A stretch of DNA of 64,000 bases from an uncultured archaeon. GTDB taxonomy: Archaea > Aenigmatarchaeota > Aenigmatarchaeia > PWEA01 > JAGHBM01. Location of the stretch: assembly GCA_964640225.1 (NCBI GenBank), contig CAZXFI010000003.1, positions 3,442 through 67,441 on the forward strand, in the 5' to 3' direction. The position numbers and the translations under genes are program-made. The notes below the pieces were generated by a model that saw only the letters and a program-made list of their open reading frames with translations, was not told the origin of the DNA and searched no databases. Positions 15,451-61,390 of this stretch are shown here, piece after piece; the first letter of the stretch is position 1, and each line of letters opens with the position of its first letter.

Positions 15451-15727
15451 AAGTTATTTATTGTCGAAATAAATATAAATAAATGTCGTATATACCCTGA
15501 GACGTTTGTTTCTTATGGAGATTTTTTATTTTTAATAGGTTTATAATATAATATATAACAGTGTTATATCATAGTTAGTAGTAGTAATAAGAAATTCCAA
15601 AGGAAATAGAGGGGTGTCTTATTCACACCCCTTTATTTCACGTGCAAATTCACACCCCTTTATTTCACGTGCAGATATGTATTTATAAATTCAAACTCTA
15701 TATGAAAGAAAGGGGGGTTGGTTTCAT
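15451..15727. promoter_or_regulatory. Candidate replication origin (oriC) upstream of orc1/cdc6
   Basis: A ~130 bp AT-rich stretch (candidate DUE, 15.47-15.60 kb) is followed by ORB-like elements of the form dyad CACGTG + GAAA + G-string. All lie immediately 5' of orc1/cdc6. Confidence 0.55.
15622..15673. repeat. Tandem 25-nt ORB-like elements. An inverted half-site lies at 15611-15631.
   Basis: TTCACACCCCTTTATTTCACGTGCA occurs twice with a 27-bp period. On the bottom strand it reads CACGTGAAATAAAGGGGTGTGAA. GGGGTGT / ACACCCC form an inverted repeat. Confidence 0.6.
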
Positions 15728-16915
15728 TTGCAAAAATCTTTGGAGTCTATTTTCAATGGTTATGTAAATAAAAGAAAGATTTTTACTAACAAAAAAGCAA
15801 TAACAATTTCCTACAAACCCAACGAGCTTCCACACAGAAACAGGGAAATAGAGAGCGTGGCTTCAATTTTAGGCCCAAGTTTAAGTGGGGAGAAACCCTC
15901 CAATGTATTTATATTCGGGAAGCCCGGAACAGGCAAAACTGCCGTGATTCACCTAATATCAAAAAAACTCACTAAGATGAGCAAAAAAAACGTGGGCCTG
16001 TTTTATCTTAATTGTAAAATGAGGAATGTGGCCGACACGGAATATAGGCTAATCGCGCAGCTTGCAAGAGAGCTCGGTGAGTTCGTTCCTGTCACAGGTC
16101 TCCCAACGGACCATGTTTACAACCTGTTCTTCAAGGCCTTGGACAAACGAGGCGGGGTTATTATTCTAATACTGGATGAAATAGACGTGCTTGTTGAAAA
16201 AATAGGGGACAACTTCCTTTATAACTTGACAAGAATAAACGAGGAGCTCAATAACACCCAGGTAAGTATAGTGGGAATTTCAAACAACCTGTCCTTCACG
16301 AACGACATGGATCCCCGCGTGAAGTCTTCACTTTCTGAGGAGGAGCTAATATTCCACCCTTACAATGCAATACAGCTGCAGGATATTTTAAGAAAGAGGT
16401 CCGAGGGGGCCTTCAAGGAAAACACCTTGGAGCCGGGTGTGATAGAAAAGTGCGCGGGACTGGCTGCCCAGGAGCACGGGGACGCCAGGAGGGCGCTGGA
16501 CCTGCTCAGAGTGGCCGCCGAGATAGCGGAAAGAGAAAGTTCGGAAAGGGTTATGGAGAAGCACGTTGACATGGCGGAGTCAAAAATAGACAAGGACAGG
16601 ATAGTAGAAATAGTAAAATCCCAACCCAGGCAGAGCCAGGCAGTCTTGTGGAGTATAATGAAGACAGGAGGCGAGATTCAGACGGGGGATATATTTTCTG
16701 TTTACGAAAAAATATGCGCCGAAAACGGCCTCAAGCCCCTGACGCACAGAAGGGTTTCCGACCTGATAGCGGAGCTGGATATGCTGGGAATAATAAGTGC
16801 CAGGGTTGTCAGCAAGGGCAGGTATGGAAGGACGAGAATAGTCAAGATGAGCCTCCAGGATTCTCTTTTAGGCAAAATAAGGGAAATACTGCAGACAAAA
16901 TATTACTTCCAGTGA
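15728..16915 (+). CDS. orc1: Orc1/Cdc6 replication initiator
   Basis: AAA+ Walker A GKPGTGKTA, Walker B LDEIDV, and a C-terminal winged helix. Confidence 0.85.
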   Translation: MQKSLESIFNGYVNKRKIFTNKKAITISYKPNELPHRNREIESVASILGPSLSGEKPSNVFIFGKPGTGKTAVIHLISKKLTKMSKKNVGLFYLNCKMRNVADTEYRLIAQLARELGEFVPVTGLPTDHVYNLFFKALDKRGGVIILILDEIDVLVEKIGDNFLYNLTRINEELNNTQVSIVGISNNLSFTNDMDPRVKSSLSEEELIFHPYNAIQLQDILRKRSEGAFKENTLEPGVIEKCAGLAAQEHGDARRALDLLRVAAEIAERESSERVMEKHVDMAESKIDKDRIVEIVKSQPRQSQAVLWSIMKTGGEIQTGDIFSVYEKICAENGLKPLTHRRVSDLIAELDMLGIISARVVSKGRYGRTRIVKMSLQDSLLGKIREILQTKYYFQ

Positions 16916-16919
16916 TTTT

Positions 16920-17927
16920 ATGGATTTGGTTAAGGATTTTTTAGACAAGGGAATTCTGCTGTCCCCGGGGGTGGTAGGCAAGGTTAAAAAAAAGGACCTG
17001 AAGGAAATAACGAAAAAAATGGGCAGGAAAGTCGTGGTAACGGGAGAGGTATTGTGCGCGGTCAGGGGAACGGGAGTGGAAATATTAAGAGAGCATAAGA
17101 AACTGGATGAAACAAAAAGAATAACGGAATTTGTTGATTTTTACAACAAAAGGTTTGAATTTTTGCGCGGATTGCTGGAGGAAAAACTGGAAATTGAGAA
17201 AATAACATCCATAAACAAACTTAACACAGGCAGAGTCACGGTCATAGGAATGGTAAGGGAAATAAATGATAAGGGGTTTAAGATAGAGGACTCCACGGGT
17301 TCTGTTTTTTGCAGGTCAGATGAAAGGCTTTTGGAGGACGAGGTTGTGGCGGTTGCGGGGAATTTTGACAGGAAAGACCTCTGCGCCGAAAAAATAATCT
17401 ACCCGGACATACCCCTTAACAAAAAAATAAATCTGACGAAGGAAGACTGCCGTGTGTTGTTCACAAAAAAACTCACCAAGGAGCCTTCACATGAACCTTC
17501 ACATATATTCACGTTTGATTTAAACCCGGAAATTTTGGGGAGCATTTCAGCAGAAATTATAACGAAAAAAGAGGGCCTGAAAAAAGGCCCCGGAAGGACA
17601 GGCCTTGGGCTACCATCTCTCTTGGAAATAAGCGGGGTGAAGATTTTTGTTTTTGAGAACAAGGAAATGGAAGAAATAAAGAAGAAAACGGAAATCAAAG
17701 ACGAGAAAAATCTAATTACCTCGCTCCTGAAAAGAAGGCACCTGCTTCCGCATGTTTACACGGAAGGCGACCCGTATCTGCTGAAGGATATACCAGACAT
17801 AATATTTTTCTCCGGGGGAAAGGAAAGTTTCTTCCTGAATTACAAGGGGGTTTCAATCGTTTCGGTTGCAGGAAAGGAAAGCTTTTTGGTAAACCTGAAA
17901 ACAAGGGATTATGAGGAGTTGGAATGA
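16920..17927 (+). CDS. Truncated DP1-like (PolD small-subunit / B-subunit-like) protein. It keeps the N-terminal domain, OB fold and C-terminal tail but lacks the phosphoesterase catalytic core.
   Basis: The MDLVKDFLDKGILLSP N-terminus and OB segment (IEDSTGSVF...VVAVAG) resemble DP1. The C-terminal LLKRRHLLP...DPYLL..IPDIIFFSGG...YKGVSIVSVAG is collinear with the DP1 tail RHVAP..DP..L...PD..HMGHVH...YRGV.LVNS, with the His residues replaced. Confidence 0.45.
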   Translation: MDLVKDFLDKGILLSPGVVGKVKKKDLKEITKKMGRKVVVTGEVLCAVRGTGVEILREHKKLDETKRITEFVDFYNKRFEFLRGLLEEKLEIEKITSINKLNTGRVTVIGMVREINDKGFKIEDSTGSVFCRSDERLLEDEVVAVAGNFDRKDLCAEKIIYPDIPLNKKINLTKEDCRVLFTKKLTKEPSHEPSHIFTFDLNPEILGSISAEIITKKEGLKKGPGRTGLGLPSLLEISGVKIFVFENKEMEEIKKKTEIKDEKNLITSLLKRRHLLPHVYTEGDPYLLKDIPDIIFFSGGKESFFLNYKGVSIVSVAGKESFLVNLKTRDYEELE

Positions 17928-18535
17928 ACATAATATTTGACCTCGGGGGCGTTTTAATAACAAACGACTGGGATAAAAAAAACACGGGGTTTTTTGCGGA
18001 GTTTATAGGGGTTTTCGGGGTTTCCGAGAAAGACATGGACCGGGGGTGGAGAGCCGGACACGATCCCTTCTTTACGGGTAGGATAAGCGAAAACGAGTTC
18101 TGGAAAATATTTTTTAAAAAGGCAGGCCGCGAAGAAGTCTCGGAAGAAGACCTTGCCCGCGCCAAAAAAATTTGGAGAAAGCACCAGAAACAGGACAAAA
18201 ACATGCTGGCTCTTTTGAGGAAACTGAAAAAAAACCACATTTTGGTAGGACTTACCAACCTAGGAAGGGAGTGGGCCGACTATAAGATAAAAAAATACAA
18301 ACTAAACAGGTATTTTCAAACGGTTTTCATTTCCGGGTACCTGGGAGTGGCCAAACCGGACCCGGAAATCTACAAGAAAGTACTCATGAAGCTCGGCGCC
18401 GAGCCAGAAGATTGCTTTTTTATTGACGACAGGGAGAGAAACACCGCCCCCGCGGAAATTCTGGGGTTCAGGACCGTTGTTTTTAAGAACCGGAAAGAAC
18501 TGGAAAAAAAACTGGCTGAAGTGGGTCTGCTGTAA
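17924..18535 (+). CDS. HAD-superfamily (subfamily IA-like) hydrolase
   Basis: N-terminal FDLGGVL nucleophile motif and a C-terminal FIDD motif. The ATGA overlaps the upstream gene. Confidence 0.7.
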   Translation: MNIIFDLGGVLITNDWDKKNTGFFAEFIGVFGVSEKDMDRGWRAGHDPFFTGRISENEFWKIFFKKAGREEVSEEDLARAKKIWRKHQKQDKNMLALLRKLKKNHILVGLTNLGREWADYKIKKYKLNRYFQTVFISGYLGVAKPDPEIYKKVLMKLGAEPEDCFFIDDRERNTAPAEILGFRTVVFKNRKELEKKLAEVGLL

Positions 18536-18600
18536 AACAATATGCTGCAGAACAAATTAATTTTTATAGCTTAATGTTCATTACTTTGTTGGGGTTGAAA

Positions 18601-21267
18601 ATGGAGTTGCAGGTTCTTGACGCCGATTACACGTTGCTTAATGAAAAACCAATAGTAAGAGTTTTCTGCAAGGATTCTACGGGGAAGGTTTTTTGTGTTT
18701 TTAAAAGGGGTGTGGAACCTTACTTCTATGCGCTGGGGGAAACGGATGAGATAAAGGAGAAACTCAAGAAATTTGAAGGCGAAATACAGAGAGTGGAGGA
18801 AGTAGAAAGGTTCCTTCCGGTGGGCTACCAGGAAAAGAAAACAAAAGTCCTTAAAATAACCAACAGAAACCCCTCCAAGGTTCCCGCCATAAGGGAAACC
18901 CTGGGGTGCAGGGTTTTTGAGGCGGACATTCTTTTCAAGTACAGGTTCTTCTCGGACACAGGCATAAAAGGCATGAACTGGATAGAAGTTGAGGGAGATT
19001 TTGTCAACACAAACACGGTCTCTTGTACGGGAATTGAAGCAAAAAAGATAAAACCAAAAAACAAGGAGGAAAACATTCCTTTAAAAATTATGGCCCTGGA
19101 CATAGAGACAGAGGCGCCGTCGGACAGGATGCCGGAGCCGGACAAGGACGCGATAACCATGATAAGCCTGGCCTTCTCGGAGGATTACAAAAAGGAGAAA
19201 GACATGGTTATAGTCTCAAAACATGTCATGCTCAGGGACGACCAGAAAAATAATACAATATGCACGGATAACGAGAAAAAAATGCTGGAAAAACTCAAGG
19301 ATGTGATAAACGACTACGACCCCGATGTAATAACAGGATACAACATACAGAACTTTGACATGCCCTTTATTGTCGGCAGGATGGACAAGTCCGGCGTCAA
19401 GAAGGACTTCGGAAGGGCAAAGGACAAGAACGTTTTTTGCAGCAAGTATGGTCCAATCTCCAACACGAACATGTCAGGAAGAATAGTCTCCGATTCCTAC
19501 CAAATTATCAAAAAAGACTTCTCCTTCAAGAGCTACAAGCTGGACAACGTAGCGGAAAAGCTTCTGGGCAAGAAAAAAATTGACATAAGCTACAAAGATT
19601 TTGAAAGGCTGTGGAACGGGAGAAAAGAGGGTGTTCAAAAACTCATAGATTACGCGAGAAAAGACTCAATACTGGCGCTGGACCTTGTGAAAAAGAAGAA
19701 CCTCCTTGACAAGTACATAGCTCTTTCAAGGGTTTCCGGAATACTGCTTCAGGATGCTCTGAACGGGGGAGAGTCAATAAGAATAGAAAACGTTTTGCTC
19801 TCCGAGTTCAACAAGAGAGGCCTACTTTTCCCTCCCAAGCCAAGCGACAGGGAGGTTATGGAAAGGGCGAATAGAAGGGAGAAGAGCGGACTGAAGGGGG
19901 GGCTTGTTCTGGAGCCGAGGGCGGGACTTCATACCGACGGATGCATACTTGTTCTGGACTTCAAGAGCCTTTACCCAAGCATAATAAGGACTTACAATAT
20001 ATGCCCCACAACGCTTCTCAAAGAAAATTTGGATGTGGAATACAGCACTTCCCCGCTTGGAATAAAGTTCGTGAAAAGCAGCGTAAAGGAAGGCATACTT
20101 CCCCACGTGCTGGAGAACCTGATAAACCAGAGATCCCTTGTCAAGAAAAAAATGCACGAGGAAAGGGATGCGGACAAGAAGAGACTGCTTTACGCCAAAC
20201 AGTGGGCCCTTAAAATACTGGCCAACGCCTTTTACGGTTATACGGGGTATCTCAGGGCAAAAACCTACGTCATGGAGGTGGCCAACACAATAACCGCCTT
20301 TGGTAGGGAATTGCTGCAAAGAACCAGAAAGGAAATAACCGACATGGGTTACGAGGTTGTATACGGGGACACGGACTCGGTTTTTGTTAAAGCGGACACC
20401 AAGGACCTTGAAAAGGCGTACAAGCTGGGAAACCGGATAGTAAGCAAGATAGACTTACCCGGAAAACTTGTCCTGGAATTTGAGAAAATATTCCGCTCGT
20501 TTCTTATATTGACCAAAAAAAGGTACGCCGGATGGAGCTTTGAGAAAAACAACGGCGACTGGTCGGACAAAATAGAGATGAAGGGAATAGAAACTGTGAG
20601 GAGGGACTGGCCAGACCTTGTAACGGAGAGCATGAATGTGGTGCTTAACATAATCCTGAAGGAAGGCAACGTCAAAAAGGCGATAGCCTACGTCCAGGGA
20701 GAGGTTGACAAGCTCAACGCGGGAACAGTGAACCTTAAAAAGCTCGCGGTCACAAAGAGCATAACAAAAAGCGTGGACAGGTATGACGGCATGCTGCCGC
20801 ACATAGAGCTGGCCAAAAAGATAAGTCAGAGGAATCCCTCCCAGACTCCTTCCCCGGGGACCAGGATATCTTACATCATAATAAGGGGCAACCAGATGCT
20901 GAGTAAGAGAGCCGAAGAGCCCGAGTACATAAACGAGCACAAGCTGAACATAGACTCCTGTTATTACATAGAGAACCAGCTTTTGCCCCCACTTGAAAGA
21001 ATATTTTCCGTGATAGGCGTTGACAAGGGAGAGCTTATGGGCAAGGGGAGGCAGTGCAACCTGAAGGACATGCTGAAGCCCGCCAAGAGAAACCATAAAA
21101 TAGAGATACCCCCGGAAAAAATTATCGTAAAGTCCCCCGAAGGATTCGTCTGCAGGAACTGCAACAAGAATTTCAGAAGGGTCCCTCTTGTGGGTAGGTG
21201 TGATTGCGGGGGAGAGATTCTGGCCTTTGCTCGGGGGAATATGGGTTTTCTTATAAAACTAAATTAA
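18601..21267 (+). CDS. polB: Family B DNA polymerase (PolB) with a C-terminal Zn-ribbon extension
   Basis: Exo I LDIETE. Pol motifs DFKSLYPSII, KILANAFYGYTGY, YGDTDS. A ~85-aa tail after the thumb carries CRNC...CDCGG. ATG 18601 is preferred. Confidence 0.85.
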   Translation: MELQVLDADYTLLNEKPIVRVFCKDSTGKVFCVFKRGVEPYFYALGETDEIKEKLKKFEGEIQRVEEVERFLPVGYQEKKTKVLKITNRNPSKVPAIRETLGCRVFEADILFKYRFFSDTGIKGMNWIEVEGDFVNTNTVSCTGIEAKKIKPKNKEENIPLKIMALDIETEAPSDRMPEPDKDAITMISLAFSEDYKKEKDMVIVSKHVMLRDDQKNNTICTDNEKKMLEKLKDVINDYDPDVITGYNIQNFDMPFIVGRMDKSGVKKDFGRAKDKNVFCSKYGPISNTNMSGRIVSDSYQIIKKDFSFKSYKLDNVAEKLLGKKKIDISYKDFERLWNGRKEGVQKLIDYARKDSILALDLVKKKNLLDKYIALSRVSGILLQDALNGGESIRIENVLLSEFNKRGLLFPPKPSDREVMERANRREKSGLKGGLVLEPRAGLHTDGCILVLDFKSLYPSIIRTYNICPTTLLKENLDVEYSTSPLGIKFVKSSVKEGILPHVLENLINQRSLVKKKMHEERDADKKRLLYAKQWALKILANAFYGYTGYLRAKTYVMEVANTITAFGRELLQRTRKEITDMGYEVVYGDTDSVFVKADTKDLEKAYKLGNRIVSKIDLPGKLVLEFEKIFRSFLILTKKRYAGWSFEKNNGDWSDKIEMKGIETVRRDWPDLVTESMNVVLNIILKEGNVKKAIAYVQGEVDKLNAGTVNLKKLAVTKSITKSVDRYDGMLPHIELAKKISQRNPSQTPSPGTRISYIIIRGNQMLSKRAEEPEYINEHKLNIDSCYYIENQLLPPLERIFSVIGVDKGELMGKGRQCNLKDMLKPAKRNHKIEIPPEKIIVKSPEGFVCRNCNKNFRRVPLVGRCDCGGEILAFARGNMGFLIKLN

Positions 21268-21298
21268 TGCTTATATTTGGCGCCCCTGAAATATTATT

Positions 21299-21751
21299 AT
21301 GACCCCCGTGGACCAGCTGGCGTTTTTCTCCGACAGCATAATTTATCTTTCCGTGCTGCTGATACCGTTTTATCTTTGGGGTAATGACAGGAAAAAACTT
21401 TTTTTATATTCATTAAGCTTTGTTGCGGTGCTGGTTTCCGTTTACCTCATCAAGATAACTCTAGCCGTTCCCAGGCCGGCCCTCGGCCTTATTCCGATGC
21501 CGGCCACGCCTTCCTTCCCAAGCATGCACGCCTCCCTCGGCCTGCTTCCGGCGGGATTTTTTTTTCATGTGAAAAAATACAAGGTTCCTCTCATTGCTTA
21601 CGGCTCTCTGATAGCGTATTCTAGGGTACTTCTGGGAGTTCATTACTGGATGGACATATTTACCGGGGCGGTGATCGGTTTTCTAATACCTCTGACGATT
21701 TTTTACAAAAAGAAAAAAGTGCTTAAGTTTTTCAGGCTAGACAAAAAATAA
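21299..21751 (+). CDS. PAP2-family membrane phosphatase (polyprenyl-pyrophosphate phosphatase-like)
   Basis: KxxxxxxRP, PSMHAS and SRVLLGVHYWMD motifs. Confidence 0.6.
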   Translation: MTPVDQLAFFSDSIIYLSVLLIPFYLWGNDRKKLFLYSLSFVAVLVSVYLIKITLAVPRPALGLIPMPATPSFPSMHASLGLLPAGFFFHVKKYKVPLIAYGSLIAYSRVLLGVHYWMDIFTGAVIGFLIPLTIFYKKKKVLKFFRLDKK

Positions 21752-22921
21752 AATAGTAGGGAGTATCAGACATCCCATCATGTAGCTTCTTCTGGTTCCG
21801 GAGAGTATACAAAAAAGACCGAGTGATGTTGAAAGCAAAAGAACACACAGTCCGGTTAATCCGGTGAACAGAACGGTCATGAAGACAAGAAAAACCAATA
21901 TGGCAAAGCCAAGAAAATTGTAGTTTATTTTTCTCAGAACCCCTATGAAATTTCCGGCAACCAGTAGGGTTGCAATTGAGGACAGGCCCCCTGCCAGTAT
22001 TATCGCGCCCATTAAAATAACAACGTCTGTTACGGTGAGAGTGGTTAGTATTTCCTGCACCGCCACACCGGCACCGCTCCTCGGGTTGCCTATCAACCAT
22101 AATGCAAGTATGGACAGGACGGCGACCACCGTGTTAACACCTCCTATTGCTATCATAAACTCGTTTTCTCTTTTCTTTCCAACAAGTTCCCGTGAAACAA
22201 AAGTGGCCTGCGCGGCACCCACCCCCGGGAGGAGGCCGGCGAGAATTCCCGACAGGGACCCGATAACCCCTCCCCTGAATATCTCACCTCTTTTCAGTTC
22301 AAGTTCGTCTGTTTTCTGCCCAGGTATTACCACACGGTCCTTTAGAGACTTTACTATCATGCTCATCCCAAACAGTCCGGTAAGCATGGGGAACAGGGCG
22401 AACTTTCCGAGAACTCCCCCGTTCAGGACAAGATACCCGAGAATCCCGGAAAGCAGAAAGACCAGAGGACCGGACAGGGTTTTGTCCTTCAGAAACATAA
22501 AACCGGTCAGAAAAATAAGGAGCCAGTGTACGTTCGGCCTCAGGGTGGAGTAAAAACTGCCTATAAAAAAGGCGAGAACAGGCAGCACTGCGAGTACCAT
22601 AAGGAGGGACACCACGCCCCCAACCACGGTAAGTTTTACCGCCTGCTGGCCCATGCCGCTCATCATCATTCTGTGCCCCGGCAGCACGCTCAGCGCGGTT
22701 TCCGGGTCGGGTGCCCCGAGCATTATTGAGGGAATGAAGTCAAGGAAGGAGTGGGCCACTGACATGGACACAATCATGACAGAAAAAAGAAGGGGGTTGC
22801 CGAAGAACAGGCCCAGGAAAACGGTTATTACGGTGTTGGGGTGGAGCCCGGGAGTAAGGCCCGTGATTATACCAACGGCTGTACCGAGAAAAATATAAAA
22901 AAGAATAGCAAGCAAATCCAT
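21737..22921 (-). CDS. TctA/DUF112-family membrane transporter
   Basis: About ten TM helices. Conserved GxLPG segments. Confidence 0.55.
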   Translation of the reverse strand: MDLLAILFYIFLGTAVGIITGLTPGLHPNTVITVFLGLFFGNPLLFSVMIVSMSVAHSFLDFIPSIMLGAPDPETALSVLPGHRMMMSGMGQQAVKLTVVGGVVSLLMVLAVLPVLAFFIGSFYSTLRPNVHWLLIFLTGFMFLKDKTLSGPLVFLLSGILGYLVLNGGVLGKFALFPMLTGLFGMSMIVKSLKDRVVIPGQKTDELELKRGEIFRGGVIGSLSGILAGLLPGVGAAQATFVSRELVGKKRENEFMIAIGGVNTVVAVLSILALWLIGNPRSGAGVAVQEILTTLTVTDVVILMGAIILAGGLSSIATLLVAGNFIGVLRKINYNFLGFAILVFLVFMTVLFTGLTGLCVLLLSTSLGLFCILSGTRRSYMMGCLILPTILFFV

Positions 22922-22948
22922 GCTTTAGGTTTCGGGAAGTGAAATAAA

Positions 22949-23137
22949 TTATTTCTTTTTCTTGTTTTTCATTGCATGGATTATTACTTCAAAAGATGTT
23001 ATTATAGCCGCTATGAGAAACCCTGTTCCAAAAGAGAGAGTTGCTTCTTTTCCCATGTACCACATAAGCGCGGTCACTACGATGAGCACTACCAGGAACA
23101 GCGGTACTTCCTCCTTCAATTGCCAACCGATTTTCAT
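22949..23137 (-). CDS. Small 2-TM membrane protein (possible TctB-like partner)
   Basis: Hydrophobic 62-aa ORF adjacent to the TctA-like gene. Confidence 0.3.
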   Translation of the reverse strand: MKIGWQLKEEVPLFLVVLIVVTALMWYMGKEATLSFGTGFLIAAIITSFEVIIHAMKNKKKK

Positions 23138-23192
23138 GTTATCACAGTTAGTTTTGTAGTTTAATATATATAATCTTTTTTAAATATCTTTA

Positions 23193-23525: not shown

Positions 23526-23559
23526 ATATTTTGGCGCAGAACTTTCTCTGTCAAATTCA

Positions 23560-23712: not shown

Positions 23713-23837
23713 CCTTTTATAACACTGTTATATCACTTTAAATAACTTTCAGGATAAATTTATCAAGGCCCGTCTCGATCAGCTCTCGGAAAGGCCTGTG
23801 GGCCCTTATGAAAAAGAGTGTTATGGGCGGGTCACAA

Positions 23838-28305: not shown

Positions 28306-31300
28306 GTGTGGTTTGTGGATTCAACTAAATGTTTACCGCTAATTTTCATACTGCTCCTGCCTGCCCTTATTTCAGGCGGCACGATTTGGAGCACCGACTC
28401 GGATTTCAACGCTTCCTCCCCTGTTTACATGAACTTTACGAACTCCTACAACGGGAACACAACCCTTGGCGTAAATTCCACGGGAATCCTGGAAGTGGGA
28501 AACGTCACGAACACGGTGAGGGCCAACTACACCCAGCCGGCCTCGGGCTGGACCTACGGGCAGTCAAGCTACGACTCATCTCTCTGCGGCCTGGGCTCCA
28601 ACAACTTTGATTTCAGGGTAAGGAACGGCACCGGTTGTTATAACGTAACGGAAAACCTTACCGGCACATCATGGGTTGCCCTGGAAAGAATTGAGGACAA
28701 CTGCCCGCCCGGCAGATACTACGGCCTGATTAACATAACCAATTCCACGCTTGCGACTGATTACGCCAACGTCACCGTGGTGATGAACCTTCCCATAAAC
28801 GAGGACAACTCGCTCAACACCACTCTGGGAATCGGCCAGTTCAGGGGAACCATGTCCACCACAACCAAGACCTATCACATTTACTACATAAACACGAGCG
28901 ACGTGGAGAACTCCACGTCTGTTACCGTGAAGAACCTTGCCCCGGACGTCTTCCTTTTTGACCCGAGCGGAAACCTTAAGGCCAAGAACATACTGGGCTC
29001 GGGACAGAGCCTTGTTTACCAGTATCTAACAGGCGAGGCCCTGGGAATAGCTGTCTTTGACAACTCCTCCACCGCGGCCTACTCAGGCCTGGCCCTGTTT
29101 TCAACCCTGAACGCCACAAGTTCCGGACAGCAGGTTTTATTTTTGGACTTCGGCGAAATGAGTGCATCCGAAAAAAACACGACCCAGCTCAGGCTGGAAA
29201 ACGAGGGAGCCCTGACGCTTTCTTCCGTTTCCCAGGGAAGGGAGCTTTACCACACGGATACGCGCCCCGGCAGCGGACCGGAAACCTTCGGCTTCCGCGT
29301 TCCCGATTTCGCTACCGAGGTAAGGGCGGAGCTCAGATGGAACGGAAGCTCCAACTACACCGTCAGGCTGTACAAGCCAGACGGCACATCCGTGTCAAAC
29401 TCCTCCGGCAGTTACATAAATTCAAATATAACCGGCGTGGAACAGGAGGAGTATGCCGAATACTCGGGGATAGTGGGCTTTGCCAACGCCGGCCTGTGGA
29501 CCGTGGAAGTCGTGAACAACACGAACGCCACTAATTCATACGTTCTTGACTTCAAGGTGTGGATGGACCCGGCCGAATGGGTGGACACAAACTACAGCAC
29601 AAAAACTTTCAACTCAACCACCTCTCCGGAAGACGTGGAGTTAAACTTCACGGTTCAGAACTACACACTCAGCGGCCAGTACAACGGCTCCCTGAGCTAC
29701 ACCAGCAGCGCCGGTGCAGTTGTCAGAGTTCCGTTCGGGACGAACGTCACCGCGCCCGAGCTTTTCGCCAACGGCACGTTCAGAAATTCCACGATAACCG
29801 TAAACGAGAACAGGGGATTCAACAGGACCGTAAATTTGAACGTAACCGTCAACAACACAGGCAACCAGGAACTTTCCGTTTCCCATTCCAATTCTTCTTT
29901 CCTGAACCACACAGCAGTCCCGTCCAACTACGTGGAGCTGTCCTACGTCCCGGTGTCTTCAATAGCTTCGGGAGAGTCAGACACGCTGGAGATAACCCTG
30001 ACAATAGACACCACGAAAACAAACAACACGGCCGGAACCTACGAGGGATGGATATACCTGAACGATTCGGACGCCCGTCCCTACACCGGGTTCAACCTTA
30101 CCCTGCAGGTCGTGCTTTCCAATTCCCTCAGCGTGCTCATAACCGACCTGGTAACGGAGGACGGGGACTCGGAAATAACCAGCAGGTCCTCGGACGAGAA
30201 CTTCACCGTGGAGGCAAAGGTTTTCTACGCCAACGGCACCTCAACCGGCGGAAACCTGACAATCTCAAACTTCGGCTCAGTGAGGCTGAGAAACCAGAAC
30301 GTGACCTACTGGATTCCCGATTCCGGATACTTTGACATAGAGGCGCATGACGATGGACTTTGGCAGGGAGGCTTCGGCGAATACTGGATAAACGCCACGT
30401 TTGAAGGGGACACAGACTGGCCCGGCGGCTACTTCAGCGTGTATCTCTCGGCCAACAAGTCTGCCACAGGCGCGACACTTTCCGGAACCAACAGCAGCGG
30501 CACGCTGACTATACCCGGGGAGGGTATGTGGTTCACGGAGCACGAAACCGTGAGCAATTTTGACGAGGTCGGCGAAACGCAGTACTACGTGATAAAGGTC
30601 ATAAATTACGGCACCGAAGACGCTACTTCCCAGATTAACCTGACCCTGACGGGGGGAGACTGCGACGACTACATAATTCTGGACGTGGAGAACGCCACCT
30701 CAGGGTGCGGGAGCGACGACGGAGGGGCGCAGTTTGACATAGACATAGACCCCGGGGACACGTGCTACTTCACCTGGGAAGTGAAAGTCAAGGACTCCAT
30801 CAACACGGATTACGTGGTGGACGAGGAGGACTGCCTGATTTCTGTGAAAACTGACGAGAATAGGTTTACAGTTTTACCGCAGGACTACTTTGACGTATAC
30901 ATATCCGAGGGAAGCTCTGGCGGGAGCGACGACGATGACGACGACGAAAACGAGGACATAGACATAACCGAGTATCCCTCATCCCTGACCATCACCCAGA
31001 ACGAGACCGATGTTTTTGAAATAACCGTGGAGAACGACGGGGACACGGACGAGAACAACATAGAACTTACCATCACGGGTATACCCTCAAGCTGGTACTC
31101 TTTCAGCCCGTCAAACCTTGACCTTGACTCCGGGGACGAGGACGAGTTTGACGTGACGCTGGAAGTTCCGGAGGACGGGGAAGTCAAGAGCTATTCGCTC
31201 ACCTTCAAGGCAGACAACGGCGATGTCTCGGATTCCAAGTCCTCCACGCTGAAAGTCCTTCCGTGCGAGGAGGGGAAGGAAAGTATAAACCTTACTTACA

Positions 31301-31788
31301 CCGGTTATATGGAAAACTACACCCGGCTTTTGGATAGAATGAGAAACATGAGCTTGGAGGGAAAGAACGTAACGGAACTCAACTCCACCATGCAGGACAT
31401 CAAGTCAAAGCTGGACGCCATGCTGGGCTACATGGAAGACGATGATTATTTCAACGCGGCCCAGATTATTGATGACATAGAATCGCTTTTCACGGCGGCC
31501 GAGGCGCAGGCCTATGAGGAAGCAGGGGAAGAAACCGTTGATATAATACAGGAGGCAACCAGCTACGTGTGGCTTGTTATAGGCGTTGTGATAATAATAA
31601 TAGCAGGCTTCCTCGTATACATGTTCATGCCGCCACCCAAGGACTCCCACAAGGTAAAAAAATTCAAATACGCTCCTCCGGGCAAGGGCGACACGCTTGG
31701 CAAAAAAATAGACAAGCAGATAAGGAGGTTGAAGACAAAGCTGAGCGACTCTAAAAAGAAGGAAGGATTTAGATGGAAGAAAAAATAA
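28306..31788 (+). CDS. Giant (1160 aa) secreted cell-surface glycoprotein, S-layer protein candidate
   Basis: Signal peptide. Dozens of N-x-S/T sequons. An acidic DDDDDDENED stretch. C-terminal TM anchor with a basic tail. Confidence 0.6.
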   Translation: MWFVDSTKCLPLIFILLLPALISGGTIWSTDSDFNASSPVYMNFTNSYNGNTTLGVNSTGILEVGNVTNTVRANYTQPASGWTYGQSSYDSSLCGLGSNNFDFRVRNGTGCYNVTENLTGTSWVALERIEDNCPPGRYYGLINITNSTLATDYANVTVVMNLPINEDNSLNTTLGIGQFRGTMSTTTKTYHIYYINTSDVENSTSVTVKNLAPDVFLFDPSGNLKAKNILGSGQSLVYQYLTGEALGIAVFDNSSTAAYSGLALFSTLNATSSGQQVLFLDFGEMSASEKNTTQLRLENEGALTLSSVSQGRELYHTDTRPGSGPETFGFRVPDFATEVRAELRWNGSSNYTVRLYKPDGTSVSNSSGSYINSNITGVEQEEYAEYSGIVGFANAGLWTVEVVNNTNATNSYVLDFKVWMDPAEWVDTNYSTKTFNSTTSPEDVELNFTVQNYTLSGQYNGSLSYTSSAGAVVRVPFGTNVTAPELFANGTFRNSTITVNENRGFNRTVNLNVTVNNTGNQELSVSHSNSSFLNHTAVPSNYVELSYVPVSSIASGESDTLEITLTIDTTKTNNTAGTYEGWIYLNDSDARPYTGFNLTLQVVLSNSLSVLITDLVTEDGDSEITSRSSDENFTVEAKVFYANGTSTGGNLTISNFGSVRLRNQNVTYWIPDSGYFDIEAHDDGLWQGGFGEYWINATFEGDTDWPGGYFSVYLSANKSATGATLSGTNSSGTLTIPGEGMWFTEHETVSNFDEVGETQYYVIKVINYGTEDATSQINLTLTGGDCDDYIILDVENATSGCGSDDGGAQFDIDIDPGDTCYFTWEVKVKDSINTDYVVDEEDCLISVKTDENRFTVLPQDYFDVYISEGSSGGSDDDDDDENEDIDITEYPSSLTITQNETDVFEITVENDGDTDENNIELTITGIPSSWYSFSPSNLDLDSGDEDEFDVTLEVPEDGEVKSYSLTFKADNGDVSDSKSSTLKVLPCEEGKESINLTYTGYMENYTRLLDRMRNMSLEGKNVTELNSTMQDIKSKLDAMLGYMEDDDYFNAAQIIDDIESLFTAAEAQAYEEAGEETVDIIQEATSYVWLVIGVVIIIIAGFLVYMFMPPPKDSHKVKKFKYAPPGKGDTLGKKIDKQIRRLKTKLSDSKKKEGFRWKKK

Positions 31789-58560: not shown

Positions 58561-58694
58561 ATCCTTTCCTTAATTCTTTCTATTTCCTCTTCCTGCTCCC
58601 GAATTTCCTTTTTTAGTTTTTCCAGGGCGGGGATTATGCCGTCTATGTCCGTTCTTAACGCTTCGGCCATTTTTTTAACTATCCTATCCCTCAT
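58557..58694 (-). CDS. Small (45 aa) coiled-coil protein coupled to the alaS stop
   Basis: Translation MRDRIVKKMAEALRTDIDGIIPALEKLKKEIREQEEEIERIKERI. The ATG overlaps the AlaRS TGA as ATGA. Confidence 0.3.
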   Translation of the reverse strand: MRDRIVKKMAEALRTDIDGIIPALEKLKKEIREQEEEIERIKERI

Positions 58695-61390
58695 TTTAAC
58701 ATCTCCCTTATTTTCTCACGGGCCTTTTCCAATTCGGCCTTCTCGGTGCCGAAGCCCTGGGCCAGCTTGGCGGAGCCGCCACCTCTCCCCCCCAGAATTT
58801 CCGAAATTTCCTTCACTATTTTACCGATGTCTATCTCAACGTCTTTCCCGGCCGAAGCAAAGATATCAATCCTCTCATTCAATCCAAACAGGAAAATTAT
58901 CGTGTTTTTTCCTGTAAGCTGCATGGAAAGTTTTTGCATATCCTTCCTGGATGTTCTCCCAAGTTCCTTTATAAGAACCTTGTTTTTGCCTATTTCTTCA
59001 AATTTCATTTTCCCGCCCCTTATTTCAGCAACCTTTCCGCTGAGTTTGTTTATTTTTTTCCTATTTTCCTTCCATTTCTTCTGCATAACTTCAATCTTTT
59101 CTACAACTTCGCTCTCTTCCACGCTCAGTATTTCTTCTGACCTTTCTAAAACCTTTTCACATTTTCCCAGATAAGTCTCGGCGGCTTTGCCTGAAACGTA
59201 AGTTAATCTTACCATGCCGTCACGGGGTTTTTCCGACTTAAGTATTATTATTTTTCCCACATCACCGGTTTGGTTGAGATGCGTCCCGCCGCATGCCTCG
59301 TGTTCCAGGTTGTCTATGGATATTATTCTCAAAGTTTTTGAGGGCACCGCGGCTCCCTGGTAAATCCTGAAGCCGTATTTCCTTTCCGCCTCAGGCCTGG
59401 GCAAAACTTCCTTTTTTACCTTGTAGTTTTTCCCGACTATTTCATTCGCTTTTTTCTGTATTTTTTCCACCTGTTTTTCCGAAAGGCTGTCGTAATGTGT
59501 TACGTCAAGATGAGCTTTGTCCACATCTTTTTTGGAGCCGCCCTGCCAGACGTGGTCTCCAAGCACCATGACCGCGGCGGCGTTGATTATATGCGTTGTG
59601 GTGTGGTGCTGCATCAGTTGTCTTCTCCTTTTCCTGTCTATTTTACATTTAACCGTATCCCCGGGCTTGAAATTTATTTTTTTAACCTGGTGGATTATCG
59701 TCTTGTCCACCTTTTCCACATTGAAAACCTCGCACCCGTTGATTTTTCCCAAGTCCGTTTCCTGGCCTCCCGACCTGGGATAGAAACCGGTTCTTTCCAG
59801 CACCACGAAATCTCCTATCACTTTCAGGACTTTTGCGTCAAATTCATAAACATTGTCATAAAACATAACAGGCGTCTCCCCTATTCCCTCAATTTCGCTT
59901 TTGTCTATGGGATACTTTTGCTTTTCCCCGGCCTCTTTTTCGTGTCTTTCCGTTACTTTCTGATATATGTCCGCGGGGATGTCTATTTTTACGCCATGCC
60001 TCTCGGCAACCTCCCTTATTGTTTCCGGCATTATGCCGTGGGAGTCATAAAGCTCAACCAGCCGGTCTTCGGTTAGTTTTTTCCCGCTTGAAATTATTTT
60101 ATTAAGCATGCTCCTTGTGTTTCTTGACGTTTCCCTGTATTTTTTCCTTTCCATGTCCATAATCCTGCCGAAATGGTCCAGTTTTTGCTTAAGTTCCGGG
60201 TTTACCGGTTTGAAATAATCCGCGATTTGTCCGGCCAGCCATTCAATTTCAAACGGAAAGCCGTATTTTTCCATAAAACTCAGTGTCCTCCTTAGGATAA
60301 CCCTTAAGTTATACCCGCCTCCGGTGTTGCTCGGCACTCCTCCGTCGTTTATGGCATAAAGAAGCGTTTTTACATGGTCTGCAACGGCATACAAGGCCTG
60401 TATTGGCTCTATTTTCTCGGCCAGTTCGTTTTTGTCAATATAGAGGGACTTCGCAATGTCTGTTTTGGCTTTCTCTATGTCTCCAACCTCGTCTATGTTC
60501 AGCAGACCGGCGAGCCTTGAATAGTCTTCAAACAGCTTCTTCTCGTATTTTATCCCGGCCTTTTTCTTCATTTTTTCAAGAACAGAGCCCAGCACGGCAT
60601 CGTAGTTGGTAGGCGTGCCCTGCGACACCCACACAAACCTTTCAAAACCGGCTCCCATGTCTATCAGCCTGTTTTTCATAACCCTGTAGTTGTCGGGCGT
60701 ACCCCTGAATTCGGTGAAAACCGCGTTCCCCAGTTCTATACCCCCAATATGGTACTCCAGCGAATAGCCGAAGGCCCCCGGCCCCAGCCAGGCGTCTTCC
60801 ATGAAGTTTATCTTCTCCTTTTTGATTCCCAATACCTCCGTGAGCATCCTGTAATCCAGTTCTATGCATTTTTCTTTCCAGTAGCCGTTTTTCTCGTCAG
60901 CAAGGGAGGCCTGTTCCAGATGAGAATGGCAGGTCCAGTGCCTTCCACTAACGCCTACCTGGGGTATGTCGTTGAATCTCAATGAAGGCTGAAGGATGAC
61001 GACGGGATTCGCAGGAAGTTCAAAAACGAACCGGTCCCCGTCTTTCCTGTAAAAGTCTACAACTCCGGCTATGGTGAAATAAAGGTCCGGAAACCACCTG
61101 CAGAGCACCGGGTATCTGTCCACAATAGCGTGCCCCTCTTTTTCAAAAAATTTCCTTACGGCTTTCCACATGGAGAAATAATCAAACTTTTTTTTGGTTA
61201 ACGGGTTCCCGATGAATTCGTAAGGCCGGCAGGAGGAGTCGTTGCAAATATCCTGGCCGGTTGTGGTCCAGAAAAATTTCCCGCATTTCTTGCACTGGTT
61301 CCTTCGGAAACCTGACTGCCTGAAAAAATCAAGATACCAGTATTTCTCCGGAGTCTTCTGTAGTATTTTCATAAGTTCCTTTTTGTTCAT
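58691..61390 (-). CDS. alaS: Alanyl-tRNA synthetase (archaeal type)
   Basis: Archaeal AlaRS N-terminus (FFW..G), editing-domain HxxxH...CGGTH, C-terminal DHHA1-like domain. Confidence 0.9.
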   Translation of the reverse strand: MNKKELMKILQKTPEKYWYLDFFRQSGFRRNQCKKCGKFFWTTTGQDICNDSSCRPYEFIGNPLTKKKFDYFSMWKAVRKFFEKEGHAIVDRYPVLCRWFPDLYFTIAGVVDFYRKDGDRFVFELPANPVVILQPSLRFNDIPQVGVSGRHWTCHSHLEQASLADEKNGYWKEKCIELDYRMLTEVLGIKKEKINFMEDAWLGPGAFGYSLEYHIGGIELGNAVFTEFRGTPDNYRVMKNRLIDMGAGFERFVWVSQGTPTNYDAVLGSVLEKMKKKAGIKYEKKLFEDYSRLAGLLNIDEVGDIEKAKTDIAKSLYIDKNELAEKIEPIQALYAVADHVKTLLYAINDGGVPSNTGGGYNLRVILRRTLSFMEKYGFPFEIEWLAGQIADYFKPVNPELKQKLDHFGRIMDMERKKYRETSRNTRSMLNKIISSGKKLTEDRLVELYDSHGIMPETIREVAERHGVKIDIPADIYQKVTERHEKEAGEKQKYPIDKSEIEGIGETPVMFYDNVYEFDAKVLKVIGDFVVLERTGFYPRSGGQETDLGKINGCEVFNVEKVDKTIIHQVKKINFKPGDTVKCKIDRKRRRQLMQHHTTTHIINAAAVMVLGDHVWQGGSKKDVDKAHLDVTHYDSLSEKQVEKIQKKANEIVGKNYKVKKEVLPRPEAERKYGFRIYQGAAVPSKTLRIISIDNLEHEACGGTHLNQTGDVGKIIILKSEKPRDGMVRLTYVSGKAAETYLGKCEKVLERSEEILSVEESEVVEKIEVMQKKWKENRKKINKLSGKVAEIRGGKMKFEEIGKNKVLIKELGRTSRKDMQKLSMQLTGKNTIIFLFGLNERIDIFASAGKDVEIDIGKIVKEISEILGGRGGGSAKLAQGFGTEKAELEKAREKIREMLK

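What the first reader, a model, noticed from the sequence alone, without database searches (positions are those of the whole stretch)
20998..21267. PolB carries a ~85-aa C-terminal extension with a C4 Zn-ribbon, like the B-subunit-docking CTD of eukaryotic B-family polymerases
After the conserved thumb end (YYIENQLLPPLERIF) the ORF continues with ...FVCRNCNKNFRRVPLVGRCDCGGEIL. Most archaeal PolBs end shortly after the thumb. In eukaryotic Pol alpha/delta/epsilon/zeta the Cys-rich CTD binds the inactivated-DP1-type B-subunit. A DP1-like degenerate protein is encoded two genes upstream, so the two may form a PolB-B-subunit-like complex.
Basis: partly seen in the sequence, partly recalled or inferred. 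Interest (0 to 1): 0.75.

Follow-up and report, generated by a model that had tools for sequence, protein, structure and literature searches.

The report
PolB tail that docks inactivated DP1
This DPANN archaeon's main DNA polymerase carries a small zinc-finger tail taken from the other archaeal polymerase (PolD) and is encoded next to a catalytically dead PolD small subunit; this eukaryote-like two-subunit polymerase is real but was described in 2020 and its subunit contact was confirmed by experiment in 2025.

Summary
The family-B polymerase (18574/18601..21267) runs about 61 aa past the point where canonical archaeal PolBs end, not about 85 aa. The extra piece holds one CxxC-x12-CxC zinc ribbon (C860, C863, C876, C878). 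All 119 full-length homologs at 46-80% identity keep it.

A profile of the tail matches only the Zn-III motif of the PolD large subunit DP2 in the PDB (E 1.8e-9), including the RRxP loop that docks DP2 onto DP1. The 335-aa protein two genes upstream is a confidently modelled DP1/B-subunit fold (Foldseek E 2e-19 to DP1, 8e-17 to Pol delta p50). It has lost all five phosphoesterase metal motifs.

In species-representative genomes, 26 of 29 tail-bearing PolBs have this short DP1 within 10 kb, usually directly upstream. None of 50 tail-less PolBs do.

It is also already published. Kazlauskas et al. 2020 described this as "B6-aenigma1" PolB plus inactivated Aenigmarchaeota DP1. A 2025 Nat Ecol Evol paper showed the DP1-PolB contact by AlphaFold3 and yeast two-hybrid.

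My small additions are the conserved orc1-dp1'-polB operon beside ORB-like origin repeats, and the matching loss of the DP2 helical bundle and the DP1 PDE loops. Interest is low to moderate.

The parts
18574..21267 (+). polB: family-B DNA polymerase with intact exonuclease and polymerase motifs. The likely true start is the ATG at 18601 (MELQVLD...).
   Evidence: Pfam DNA_pol_B E 7e-107 and exo1 E 2e-41. Exo I-III and Pol A-C residues are invariant in the family alignment. Homologs are 886-890 aa and start at the second Met.
21052..21075 (+). Internal PIP-like motif Q827-L834 (QCNLKDML). It sits where canonical PolBs carry their C-terminal PCNA-binding box. It marks the end of the canonical PolB.
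   Evidence: Aligns with the KOD/Tgo C-terminus '...RQVGLSAWL'. Q827 is invariant. Canonical PolBs end with KQxxLxxF/W here. PCNA binding is inferred, not tested.
21082..21138 (+). Linker of the extension, aa 837-855 (AKRNHKIEIPPEKIIVKSP). It varies in length and sequence among homologs.
   Evidence: Gappy, poorly conserved columns in A1. Lower model confidence, pLDDT 61-70.
21139..21222 (+). Zn-ribbon module, aa 856-883 (EGFVCRNCNKNFRRVPLVGRCDCGGEIL). The C4 ligands are C860, C863, C876 and C878. It is homologous to Zn-III of the PolD large subunit DP2 (equivalent to eukaryotic CysB/Zn-2).
   Evidence: 4 Cys kept in 119 of 119 homologs. Profile against PDB hits DP2 6knb_B at E 1.8e-9 and 6hms_B/6t8h_B at E 2e-7. 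NCBIfam DP2 profile hit at aa 857-883. AF2 pLDDT is about 90. The top Foldseek hit is DP2, rmsd 0.6 A over 30 columns at 50% identity.
21175..21186 (+). RRxP loop (R868-R869-V870-P871) inside the Zn ribbon. It is the counterpart of DP2 R1131/R1132 in the KxRRxP motif, which inserts into the acidic OB/PDE groove of DP1.
   Evidence: Loop consensus K-x-[FY]-R-R-x-P-L-x-G. Counts out of 118: R5 76, R6 97, P8 112, L9 116, G11 116. The role of the DP2 loop comes from Raia 2019.
21223..21264 (+). C-terminal beta-hairpin after the Zn ribbon, aa 884-897 (AFARGNMGFLIKLN), with the conserved G-x-x-G pattern. Neither of the two helices that follow Zn-III in DP2 is present.
   Evidence: Strands at tail residues 71-75, 78-80 and 82-84, pLDDT 87-91. 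Consensus in A1.
16920..17927 (+). dp1': a 335-aa catalytically dead, shortened homolog of the PolD small subunit DP1 / eukaryotic B-subunit. It has an N-terminal helical domain, an OB fold and a reduced PDE-like domain.
   Evidence: PDB DP1 hit E 6e-6 over the OB region. NCBIfam DP1 E 9e-27, below cutoff. AF2 pLDDT 89.7, pTM 0.81. Foldseek: DP1 E 2e-19, Pol delta p50 8e-17, Pol epsilon, zeta and alpha B-subunits 1e-11 to 1e-13. All five PDE metal motifs are lost, while EDxTG, PDxP, RRH and IPD are kept.
15728..16915 (+). orc1/cdc6 replication initiator, the first gene of the orc1-dp1'-(had)-polB string.
   Evidence: NCBIfam ORC1-type E 1e-147; Pfam Cdc6 lid and WH domains. Adjacent to dp1' in many relatives.
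17924..18535 (+). HAD-family hydrolase gene between dp1' and polB. It is probably a lineage-specific insertion and not part of the polymerase system.
   Evidence: Pfam HAD E 2e-15. Absent between dp1' and polB in relatives at 64-76% PolB identity (L001, L081, L082/L083) and in all 19 directly adjacent pairs.
15455..15675 (.). Probable replication origin: an AT-rich stretch (29% GC) followed by three ORB-like boxes. One box is at 15595-15617. Two boxes in the opposite orientation are at 15625-15646 and 15652-15673.
   Evidence: Repeats D2, I1 and I5. Sequence. The same elements are conserved upstream of orc1 in L081 and L082, and L081 has the classical TCCAGTGGAAA...GGGG box. Origin function is inferred.

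Best explanation
The window encodes the two-subunit replicase typical of Aenigmatarchaeota. It consists of a proofreading-proficient family-B polymerase (group B6) and a short, catalytically dead DP1.

The polymerase's last ~61 residues are a flexible linker followed by a single C4 zinc ribbon derived from Zn-III of the PolD large subunit DP2. The zinc ribbon, through its conserved RRxP loop, plugs into the groove between the OB and PDE-like domains of the dead DP1. [quoted passage not shown]

DP1' no longer proofreads, because PolB has its own exonuclease. It most likely serves as an adaptor. Its retained N-terminal helical domain is the part that links PolD to GINS/CMG in Thermococcus.

The genes sit in an orc1-dp1'-polB string next to a probable origin, where Thermococcales have orc1-DP1-DP2.

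Shown here: tail homology to DP2 Zn-III, the DP1/B-subunit fold, loss of the PDE motifs, and co-occurrence with synteny. From the literature: the physical DP1-PolB interaction in this phylum and the absence of DP2. Inferred: zinc binding, the docking geometry and the adaptor role.
For: Tail:
- The C4 motif is kept in 119 of 119 homologs, and the four Cys are invariant columns.
- The only significant PDB matches of the tail profile are DP2 Zn-III (E 1.8e-9, 2.2e-7). The next hits are generic zinc fingers at E >= 0.003.
- An NCBIfam DP2 profile gives an independent weak hit at aa 857-883.
- The AF2 tail model is a confident beta zinc ribbon. Its best structural match is DP2 Zn-III, rmsd 0.6 A over 30 columns at 50% identity.
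- The docking loop [FY]-R-R-x-P-L-x-G is conserved. In P. abyssi the matching RR loop sits in the acidic OB/PDE groove of DP1, and a 20-aa Zn-III peptide binds P. horikoshii DP1 with nanomolar affinity (Raia 2019).

Partner:
- The AF2 model has pLDDT 89.7. Foldseek gives DP1 at E 2e-19, Pol delta p50 at 8e-17, and the Pol epsilon, zeta and alpha B-subunits.
- All five PDE motifs are lost in the window protein and in all but one of the Aenigmatarchaeota DP1' sequences aligned. The non-catalytic EDxTG, PDxP, (K/R)RH and (I/V)PD motifs are kept.

Linkage:
- 26 of 29 tail-bearing PolB loci have dp1' within 10 kb. It is directly upstream of polB in 17 complete loci and 2 truncated ones. None of 50 tail-less PolB loci have it.
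- Two of the three exceptions are explained by contig or locus ends.

Literature:
- Kazlauskas 2020 describes B6-aenigma1 plus inactivated Aenigmarchaeota DP1, with DP2 absent.
- PMC12680538 reports AlphaFold3 and Y2H interaction of Aenigmatarchaeota DP1 with PolB-DP2CTD, and none with canonical PolBs.
Against: - I could not predict the complex myself.
- The tail lacks the helices alpha1' and alpha3' that also contact DP1 in PolD, and the 2025 paper calls the Aenigmatarchaeota CTD degenerate with a different predicted structure. Binding may therefore be weaker or have a different geometry.
- The RR pair is not universal. About a third of tails lack the first Arg and about a fifth lack the second, yet several loci whose tails lack the RR pair (for example L005, L012, L015, L019, L020) still have dp1'.
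- Foldseek E-values for the 30-residue ribbon are not significant on their own (0.018).
- Absence of DP2 from this genome cannot be checked from a 64-kb window. There is none in the window.
- Zinc, as opposed to another metal, is assumed.
Confidence: 0.85

Rival explanations
1. The zinc ribbon is mainly a DNA-contacting or processivity element of the polymerase. In PolD, Zn-III and clamp-1 surround the nascent duplex. Under this reading the neighbouring dp1' is functionally independent of the tail.
For: In PolD the Zn-III domain and its adjoining strands are placed to touch the minor groove, and basic residues R1122, K1125, K1129 and K1145 line the duplex (Raia 2019). The tail is basic around the ribbon (K865, R868, R869, R875).
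Against: The rest of clamp-1, a five-helix bundle, is absent. The ribbon hangs on a roughly 20-aa poorly conserved linker. The tight co-occurrence of tail and dp1' (26 of 29 against 0 of 50) and the published Y2H interaction are not explained by a purely DNA-binding role. The two roles are not mutually exclusive.
Confidence: 0.07
2. The tail recruits another replisome partner, such as the primase large subunit PriL or PCNA, rather than DP1'.
For: The DP2 CTD interacts with primase in Heimdallarchaeia and in T. kodakarensis, according to PMC12680538. A PIP-like motif lies just upstream of the extension.
Against: The conserved residues are exactly those of the DP1-docking loop. In the 2025 study the Y2H signal for Aenigmatarchaeota was with DP1. 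No primase gene is linked to the locus in the flanks examined. A Toprim/DnaG-like gene lies about 3 kb downstream but is not PriL.
Confidence: 0.05
3. The C4 tail is an unrelated, convergently acquired generic zinc ribbon, or a gene-calling or read-through artefact, with no specific link to PolD.
For: Short zinc ribbons are common and recur by convergence. Foldseek also lists Nob1, adenylate kinase lid and HypA ribbons.
Against: Similarity to DP2 extends to non-ligand positions (F-x-C-x-x-C-x-x-x-F-R-R-x-P-L-x-G-K-C-x-C-G-G), at 50% identity and E 1.8e-9. The tail is conserved in length and frame in 119 homologs and about 28 species-level genomes, which excludes an artefact.
Confidence: 0.02

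Closest known systems
B6-aenigma1 PolB plus 'Aenigma_GB_GCA_002789635-like' inactivated DP1 (Kazlauskas et al. 2020, NAR, PMC7544198). The same system is called PolB-DP2CTD/DP1 of Aenigmatarchaeota in Nat Ecol Evol 2025 (PMC12680538).
   Same: Same phylum, by best hits. Same PolB group: the nearest tail-less relatives are Methanosarcinales PolBs. Same single C-terminal C4 motif most similar to DP2 Zn-III. Same dead DP1 partner. The proposed and Y2H-supported function is the one inferred here.
   Different: Nothing essential; this is a member. Two details are absent from the main text of the 2020 paper; I did not check the 2025 paper or either supplement for them. One is the conserved orc1-dp1'-polB gene string next to ORB-like repeats. 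The other is a HAD gene inserted between dp1' and polB in this lineage only.
Archaeal PolD: DP2 C-terminal domain (Zn-III plus helices alpha1'-alpha3') bound to DP1 (P. abyssi, PDB 6HMS/6T8H; Raia et al. 2019)
   Same: The zinc ribbon sequence and its RRxP docking loop are the same. The partner has the same OB + PDE fold and N-terminal helical domain. The operon position next to orc1 matches the Thermococcales arrangement (the latter from my own knowledge).
   Different: The catalytic subunit is a family-B polymerase, not the two-barrel DP2. The helical bundle and the C-terminal PIP box of the DP2 CTD are missing. DP1' has lost all nuclease metal ligands and about a third of the PDE domain.
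Eukaryotic Pol alpha/delta/epsilon/zeta catalytic-subunit CTD bound to the B-subunit (for example PDB 4Y97, 5VBN, 6TNY)
   Same: The logic is the same: a family-B catalytic core, a C-terminal metal-binding docking module and a nuclease-dead DP1-type second subunit. The DP1' model matches p50, p59, p70 and Pol31 folds at E 1e-11 to 1e-17.
   Different: There is only one C4 site (the CysB/Zn-2 equivalent), with no CysA, no three-helix bundle and no Fe-S variant. The tail profile gives no significant sequence hit to eukaryotic CTDs. 5vbn_B appears only at rank 25 with E 1.3 in Foldseek.
Baldrarchaeia PolB3-DP2CTD (formerly 'B6-aenigma2')
   Same: It is a related B6-type PolB fused to a DP2-derived CTD, in a lineage that keeps DP1 but lacks DP2.
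   Different: It has a full-length CTD with two C4 motifs and helices. Locus L035 in my scan shows this architecture, with a 204-aa tail. The window protein has the short, degenerate one-finger version.

Membership tests
B6-aenigma1 PolB (Aenigmatarchaeota PolB-DP2CTD fusion) | Family-B polymerase core with intact exonuclease and polymerase motifs | tested here: met
   Pfam DNA_pol_B E 7e-107 and exo1 E 2e-41. DIE, NxxxFD, YxxxD, DxxSLYPS, KxxxNxxYG and YGDTDS residues are invariant.
B6-aenigma1 PolB (Aenigmatarchaeota PolB-DP2CTD fusion) | Belongs to PolB group B6 (sister to the Methanosarcinales PolBs) | tested here: inconclusive
   After Aenigmatarchaeota (42-64% identity), the next best genome hits are Methanosarcinales at 35-40%, ahead of other archaeal PolBs at 30-33%. 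This is consistent with B6, but I built no phylogeny with reference B1-B10 sequences.
B6-aenigma1 PolB (Aenigmatarchaeota PolB-DP2CTD fusion) | Single C-terminal C4 metal motif most similar to DP2 Zn-III | tested here: met
B6-aenigma1 PolB (Aenigmatarchaeota PolB-DP2CTD fusion) | Host is an Aenigmatarchaeota archaeon | tested here: met
   Named homologs and genome records at 42-80% identity are nearly all labelled Aenigmatarchaeota or Aenigmarchaeota. This is an inference from labels of relatives, because the window itself is unlabelled.
B6-aenigma1 PolB (Aenigmatarchaeota PolB-DP2CTD fusion) | Genome lacks the PolD catalytic subunit DP2 | not testable with these tools
   No DP2 among the large ORFs of the 64-kb window. 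The rest of the genome is not available. Absence in the phylum is stated.
B6-aenigma1 PolB (Aenigmatarchaeota PolB-DP2CTD fusion) | Co-occurs with, and binds, an inactivated DP1 | tested here: met
   Co-occurrence is 26 of 29 against 0 of 50 loci. Y2H and AF3 results are reported for the phylum.
Eukaryote-type polymerase CTD (CysA - helical bundle - CysB) | Two C4 metal-binding motifs | tested here: not met
   Only one CxxC...CxC is found in the tail of the window protein and of the 119 close homologs.
Eukaryote-type polymerase CTD (CysA - helical bundle - CysB) | Three-helix bundle connecting the metal sites | tested here: not met
   The tail model has only beta strands in its confident part. 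The two short helices lie in the low-confidence pre-linker region that belongs to the canonical PolB end.
Eukaryote-type polymerase CTD (CysA - helical bundle - CysB) | CysB/Zn-2-equivalent ribbon that fits the OB/PDE groove of the second subunit | tested here: inconclusive
   Homology to DP2 Zn-III, the stated equivalent of Zn-2, is shown. Docking was not modelled here.
Active PolD small subunit DP1 (Mre11-like 3'-5' exonuclease) | OB fold plus calcineurin-like PDE fold | tested here: met
   Foldseek gives P. abyssi DP1 at E 2e-19, TMq 0.65-0.69.
Active PolD small subunit DP1 (Mre11-like 3'-5' exonuclease) | Five PDE metal-ligand motifs (DxH, GD, GNHD, H, GHxH) | tested here: not met
   The window protein reads KT, DL, EG--, E, SGK at these positions. 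Reference DP1s read DH, GD, GNHD, H, GHH.
Eukaryotic-type B-subunit (nuclease-dead DP1 homolog) | DP1 fold with inactivated PDE site, paired with a family-B catalytic subunit that carries a docking CTD | tested here: met
   This is functional resemblance only. No phylogeny was made here to place it relative to the eukaryotic B-subunits.

The most novel reading that the evidence does not exclude
The conserved orc1-dp1'-polB string beside ORB-like origin repeats is the old oriC-proximal orc1-DP1-DP2 operon. In it, a B6 PolB gene replaced the DP2 coding region in situ and kept only the ~40-aa Zn-III docking peptide of DP2. The DP2 helices that touch the PDE loops and those PDE loops were then lost together. 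What remains is the smallest known polymerase/B-subunit docking pair: one zinc ribbon on a linker against a ~300-340-aa DP1. This would give a concrete recombination route and a minimal interface for the PolD-to-PolB switch that is also proposed for the eukaryotic ancestor.
Probability: 0.4. Interest if true: 0.35.

Novelty: already known. Interest (0 to 1): 0.25.

Why it matters
This pairing of a family-B polymerase carrying a DP2-derived docking finger with a nuclease-dead DP1 is the closest archaeal analogue of the eukaryotic catalytic-subunit/B-subunit architecture. For that reason it features in published scenarios for the origin of Pol alpha, delta and epsilon.

For this window it means the annotation can be made with confidence. 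The 335-aa 'hypothetical protein' is the polymerase's non-catalytic second subunit. The PolB is probably the main replicase, and the locus probably marks the replication origin.

It adds no new principle beyond the 2020 and 2025 papers. The operon and origin context and the minimal one-finger interface are modest refinements that could guide a biochemical reconstitution.

Tried and rejected
1. Co-folding DP1' with the tail. I built 24 paired DP1'+G30+tail fusions from the window and genome loci, plus unpaired homologs. No interface model was obtained.

2. Foldseek of the isolated tail. The top hit is DP2 Zn-III, but E is only 0.018 because the domain is about 30 residues. I use it as corroboration only.

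3. Viral or MGE origin. A scan of IMG/VR with the PolB alignment gave only distant PolBs (at most 36% identity over segments, mostly giant-virus bins). None had a Zn-III-like tail on the PolB, and none of the 80 loci held a DP1-like ORF. This gives no support for a mobile-element source, but it does not exclude one.

4. DP2 in the window. The 1160-aa ORF at 28306..31788 is not DP2; it has only an NPCBM_assoc domain. The 899-aa ORF at 58691..61390 is alanyl-tRNA synthetase.

5. Covariation between loss of the RR loop and DP1' groove residues. I inspected by eye. No clear pattern emerged with about 24 pairs, and I did not pursue it.

6. Pfam PF20286, listed for some homologs, is just 'divergent family B DNA polymerase' over the palm and is unrelated to the tail.

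7. One literature query failed on term length and was repeated.
Full report
**The sequence**

The ORF 18574..21267 (+) translates to an 897-aa family-B DNA polymerase. Pfam places the exonuclease domain at aa 112-326 and the polymerase domain at aa 392-813. Homologs are 886-890 aa and start at the position of the second Met, so the real start is probably 18601. The catalytic residues of Exo I-III and Pol motifs A-C are invariant in a 29-sequence family alignment. This is an active, proofreading polymerase.

YYIENQLLPPLERIF is aa 797-811. The cysteine-rich segment FVCRNCNKNFRRVPLVGRCDCGGEIL is aa 858-883, with C860, C863, C876 and C878.

**Size of the extension**

Canonical archaeal PolBs do not end at ERIF. 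In the 50 tail-less PolB loci I fetched, the protein typically continues 36-40 aa after YYIxNQ and ends in a PIP-like KQxxLxx[FW] box. Thermococcus PolBs of 773-775 aa align to the window protein up to aa 836 (...RQCNLKDMLKP), within 2-3 residues of their own ends. The true add-on is therefore aa 837-897, which is 61 aa. It comprises:

- a poorly conserved linker of about 19 aa
- a 28-aa zinc-ribbon module
- a 14-aa beta-hairpin

**Conservation of the motif**

All 119 full-length homologs returned by the protein search (46-80% identity) carry CxxC-x12(-15)-C-x1-2-C in the same place. The four Cys are invariant columns in three separate alignments.

**What the tail is**

A profile of 45 diverse tails searched against all PDB sequences gives only three significant hits. 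All three are the Zn-III motif of the PolD large subunit DP2: T. kodakarensis 6knb_B at E 1.8e-9, and P. abyssi 6hms_B and 6t8h_B at E 2.2e-7. The P. abyssi segment is [30 protein letters not shown], against EGFVCRNCNKNFRRVPLVGRCDCGGEIL here. The next hits are generic zinc fingers at E >= 0.003.

An NCBIfam DP2 model independently gives a weak hit at aa 857-883. An AlphaFold2 model of the tail, using 80 homologs, is confident (pLDDT about 90) over the last 47 residues and is all-beta. Its best structural match in the PDB is again DP2 Zn-III, with rmsd 0.6 A over 30 columns at 50% identity. The Foldseek E-value (0.018) is weak because the domain is tiny.

**Comparison with the DP2 docking domain**

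Raia et al. 2019 show that in PolD this Zn-III domain sits in an acidic groove at the OB/PDE interface of DP1 through a KxRRxP loop (R1131, R1132). They also report that a 20-aa Zn-III peptide binds P. horikoshii DP1 with nanomolar affinity, and that Zn-III is the equivalent of eukaryotic Zn-2/CysB.

The same loop is conserved in the PolB tails, as K-x-[FY]-R-R-x-P-L-x-G. Out of 118 tails, R5 occurs in 76, R6 in 97, P8 in 112, L9 in 116 and G11 in 116. The window has FRRVPLVG.

The tail lacks the DP2 helices alpha1' and alpha3', which also touch the PDE domain. It lacks a second (CysA-type) metal site and a terminal PIP box. It is a one-finger remnant of the DP2 CTD, not a full eukaryote-type CTD.

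**The neighbour**

The 335-aa ORF 16920..17927 has no Pfam hit. Its aa 64-171 match the OB region of P. abyssi DP1 (E 6e-6), and NCBIfam DP1 models hit below cutoff (E 9e-27). Its close homologs are 290-345 aa and fast-evolving, with bona fide DP1s of 450-580 aa appearing further down the list.

An AlphaFold2 model is confident (pLDDT 89.7, pTM 0.81). Foldseek matches are:

| Target | E-value |
|---|---|
| P. abyssi DP1 | 2e-19 |
| Human Pol delta p50 | 8e-17 |
| Pol epsilon B-subunit (5vbn_A) | 3e-13 |
| Pol31 in Pol zeta | 1e-12 |
| Pol alpha p70 (4y97_C) | 2e-11 |

I aligned the DP1' sequences from the window and 26 loci, plus 17 database homologs, against nine genuine DP1s. The five phosphoesterase metal motifs read DH, GD, GNHD, H, GHH in most reference DP1s. 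In the window protein they read KT, DL, EG--, E, SGK. They are likewise destroyed in every Aenigmatarchaeota sequence except one, L010, which keeps four of five. The non-catalytic motifs EDxTG, PDxP, (K/R)RH and (I/V)PD are retained throughout.

The protein is therefore a nuclease-dead, shortened DP1. It keeps the N-terminal helical domain, which in Thermococcus links PolD to Gins51/CMG. It also keeps the OB domain and the core of the PDE fold.

**Do tail and partner go together?**

I scanned one genome per species (GTDB representatives) with the PolB alignment and kept 80 loci with up to 10 kb of flanks. I searched all ORFs with a DP1 HMM that includes both short and genuine DP1s. Counting the window:

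- 26 of 29 complete tail-bearing PolBs have a short DP1 gene in the flanks.
- In 17 of these, plus two loci whose polB is truncated, it lies directly upstream of polB on the same strand.
- In the remaining loci it usually forms an orc1-dp1' pair 1.4-6.5 kb away.
- Of the three exceptions, L008 is a short contig. L031 has orc1 at the very end of the fetched locus, where dp1' would be cut off. L035 is a different, two-finger architecture.
- None of the 50 tail-less PolB loci (Methanosarcinales B6, Nanohaloarchaea, Crenarchaeota and others) has any DP1-type gene nearby.

The tail is common to the whole clade, and so is the partner.

In close relatives, including an 832,879-bp contig (CP070662.1), the order is HTH - orc1 - dp1' - polB - PAP2 - TctA, with no gene between dp1' and polB. 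The HAD hydrolase gene at 17924..18535 is therefore a lineage-specific insertion.

**Co-folding**

I could not co-fold the two proteins.

**Comparison with the literature**

Kazlauskas et al. 2020 (PMC7544198) describe this system in full:

- Most Aenigmarchaeota lack DP2.
- Their DP1 ('Aenigma_GB_GCA_002789635-like') is inactivated.
- The authors propose that PolB replaced DP2 and that this mirrors the origin of the eukaryotic PolB/B-subunit pairs.

[quoted passage not shown] It calls the Aenigmatarchaeota CTD shorter and degenerate. It reassigns the two-finger 'B6-aenigma2' sequences to Baldrarchaeia.

**What this analysis adds**

The 2020 main text does not mention gene neighbourhood. I did not check the 2025 paper or either supplement for it. 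Here the genes form an orc1-dp1'-polB string that is conserved across many species.

In the window the string lies immediately downstream of a 29%-GC stretch and three ORB-like boxes. One box reads TTCCAAAGGAAATAGAGGGGTGT. The other two are inverted and read ACACCCCTTTATTTCACGTGCA. These elements are conserved in relatives, and one relative carries the classical TCCAGTGGAAA...GGGG box.

From my own knowledge, this matches the oriC-cdc6-DP1-DP2 arrangement of Thermococcales. It suggests that PolB took the place of DP2 in situ and kept only the docking finger. The simultaneous loss of the DP2 helices and of much of the PDE domain they contact fits a pared-down interface. A scan of IMG/VR found no viral PolB with such a tail and no DP1, so I found no support for a mobile-element donor.

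**Verdict**

- The system is a member of a described family, so novelty is 'already known' and interest is modest.
- The remaining uncertainty concerns this particular protein pair. It includes the binding geometry without the helical bundle, the metal identity, the absence of DP2 from this genome, and the adaptor role of DP1'.

Noticed in passing
window 15455-15675: The region is a probable replication origin. A 29%-GC AT-rich stretch is followed by three ORB-like boxes. One box (15595-15617) reads TTCCAAAGGAAATAGAGGGGTGT. Two tandem boxes in the opposite orientation (15625-15646 and 15652-15673) read ACACCCCTTTATTTCACGTGCA. They lie directly upstream of orc1. The same elements are conserved upstream of orc1 in relatives L081 and L082, and L081 has the classical TCCAGTGGAAA...GGGG box.
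   Followed up: partly
window 17924-18535: A HAD-family hydrolase gene sits between dp1' and polB, overlapping the dp1' stop by 4 nt. Relatives at 64-76% PolB identity (L001, L081, L082/L083) and all directly adjacent dp1'-polB pairs lack it, so it is a recent insertion into the operon.
   Followed up: partly
L035:10001-13042 (contig CAZJVP010000020.1, labelled 'uncultured Thermococci archaeon'): This PolB has a 204-aa C-terminal domain with two C4 motifs, predicted helical spacers and a terminal QMTLAEFL (PIP-like). That is the 'B6-aenigma2' / Baldrarchaeia PolB3-DP2CTD architecture, so the taxonomic label of the bin may be wrong. No DP1 gene lies within 10 kb.
   Followed up: no
L010:8810-10006: This Aenigmatarchaeota DP1-like protein (391 aa) still has DxH, GD, H and GHxH, with only GNHD changed to GEVD. 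It looks like an intermediate in the decay of the DP1 nuclease site, next to a tail-bearing PolB.
   Followed up: no
window 21052-21075 (PolB aa 827-834): An internal PIP-like motif, QCNLKDML, sits where canonical PolBs have their C-terminal PCNA box. Its aromatic positions are replaced by M/L here. In many relatives it reads Q-x-x-L-F-D-[VI]-[LFI]. Methanosarcinales B6 PolBs instead carry two KQKxLFDF boxes, one internal and one terminal.
   Followed up: no
window 13802-25408: Replication and repair genes cluster around the origin: an Hjc-like resolvase (13802-14176, by analogy with L081/L082), an HTH regulator (14731-15450, minus strand), orc1, dp1', polB and a Toprim/DnaG-like protein (24146-25408). 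This order is conserved in relatives.
   Followed up: no
L042:10001-13987 and L049:10001-13870: In these two loci the PolB match spans about 3.9-4.0 kb instead of about 2.65 kb. This suggests intein or other insertions in the polB gene of these Aenigmatarchaeota-type genomes.
   Followed up: no
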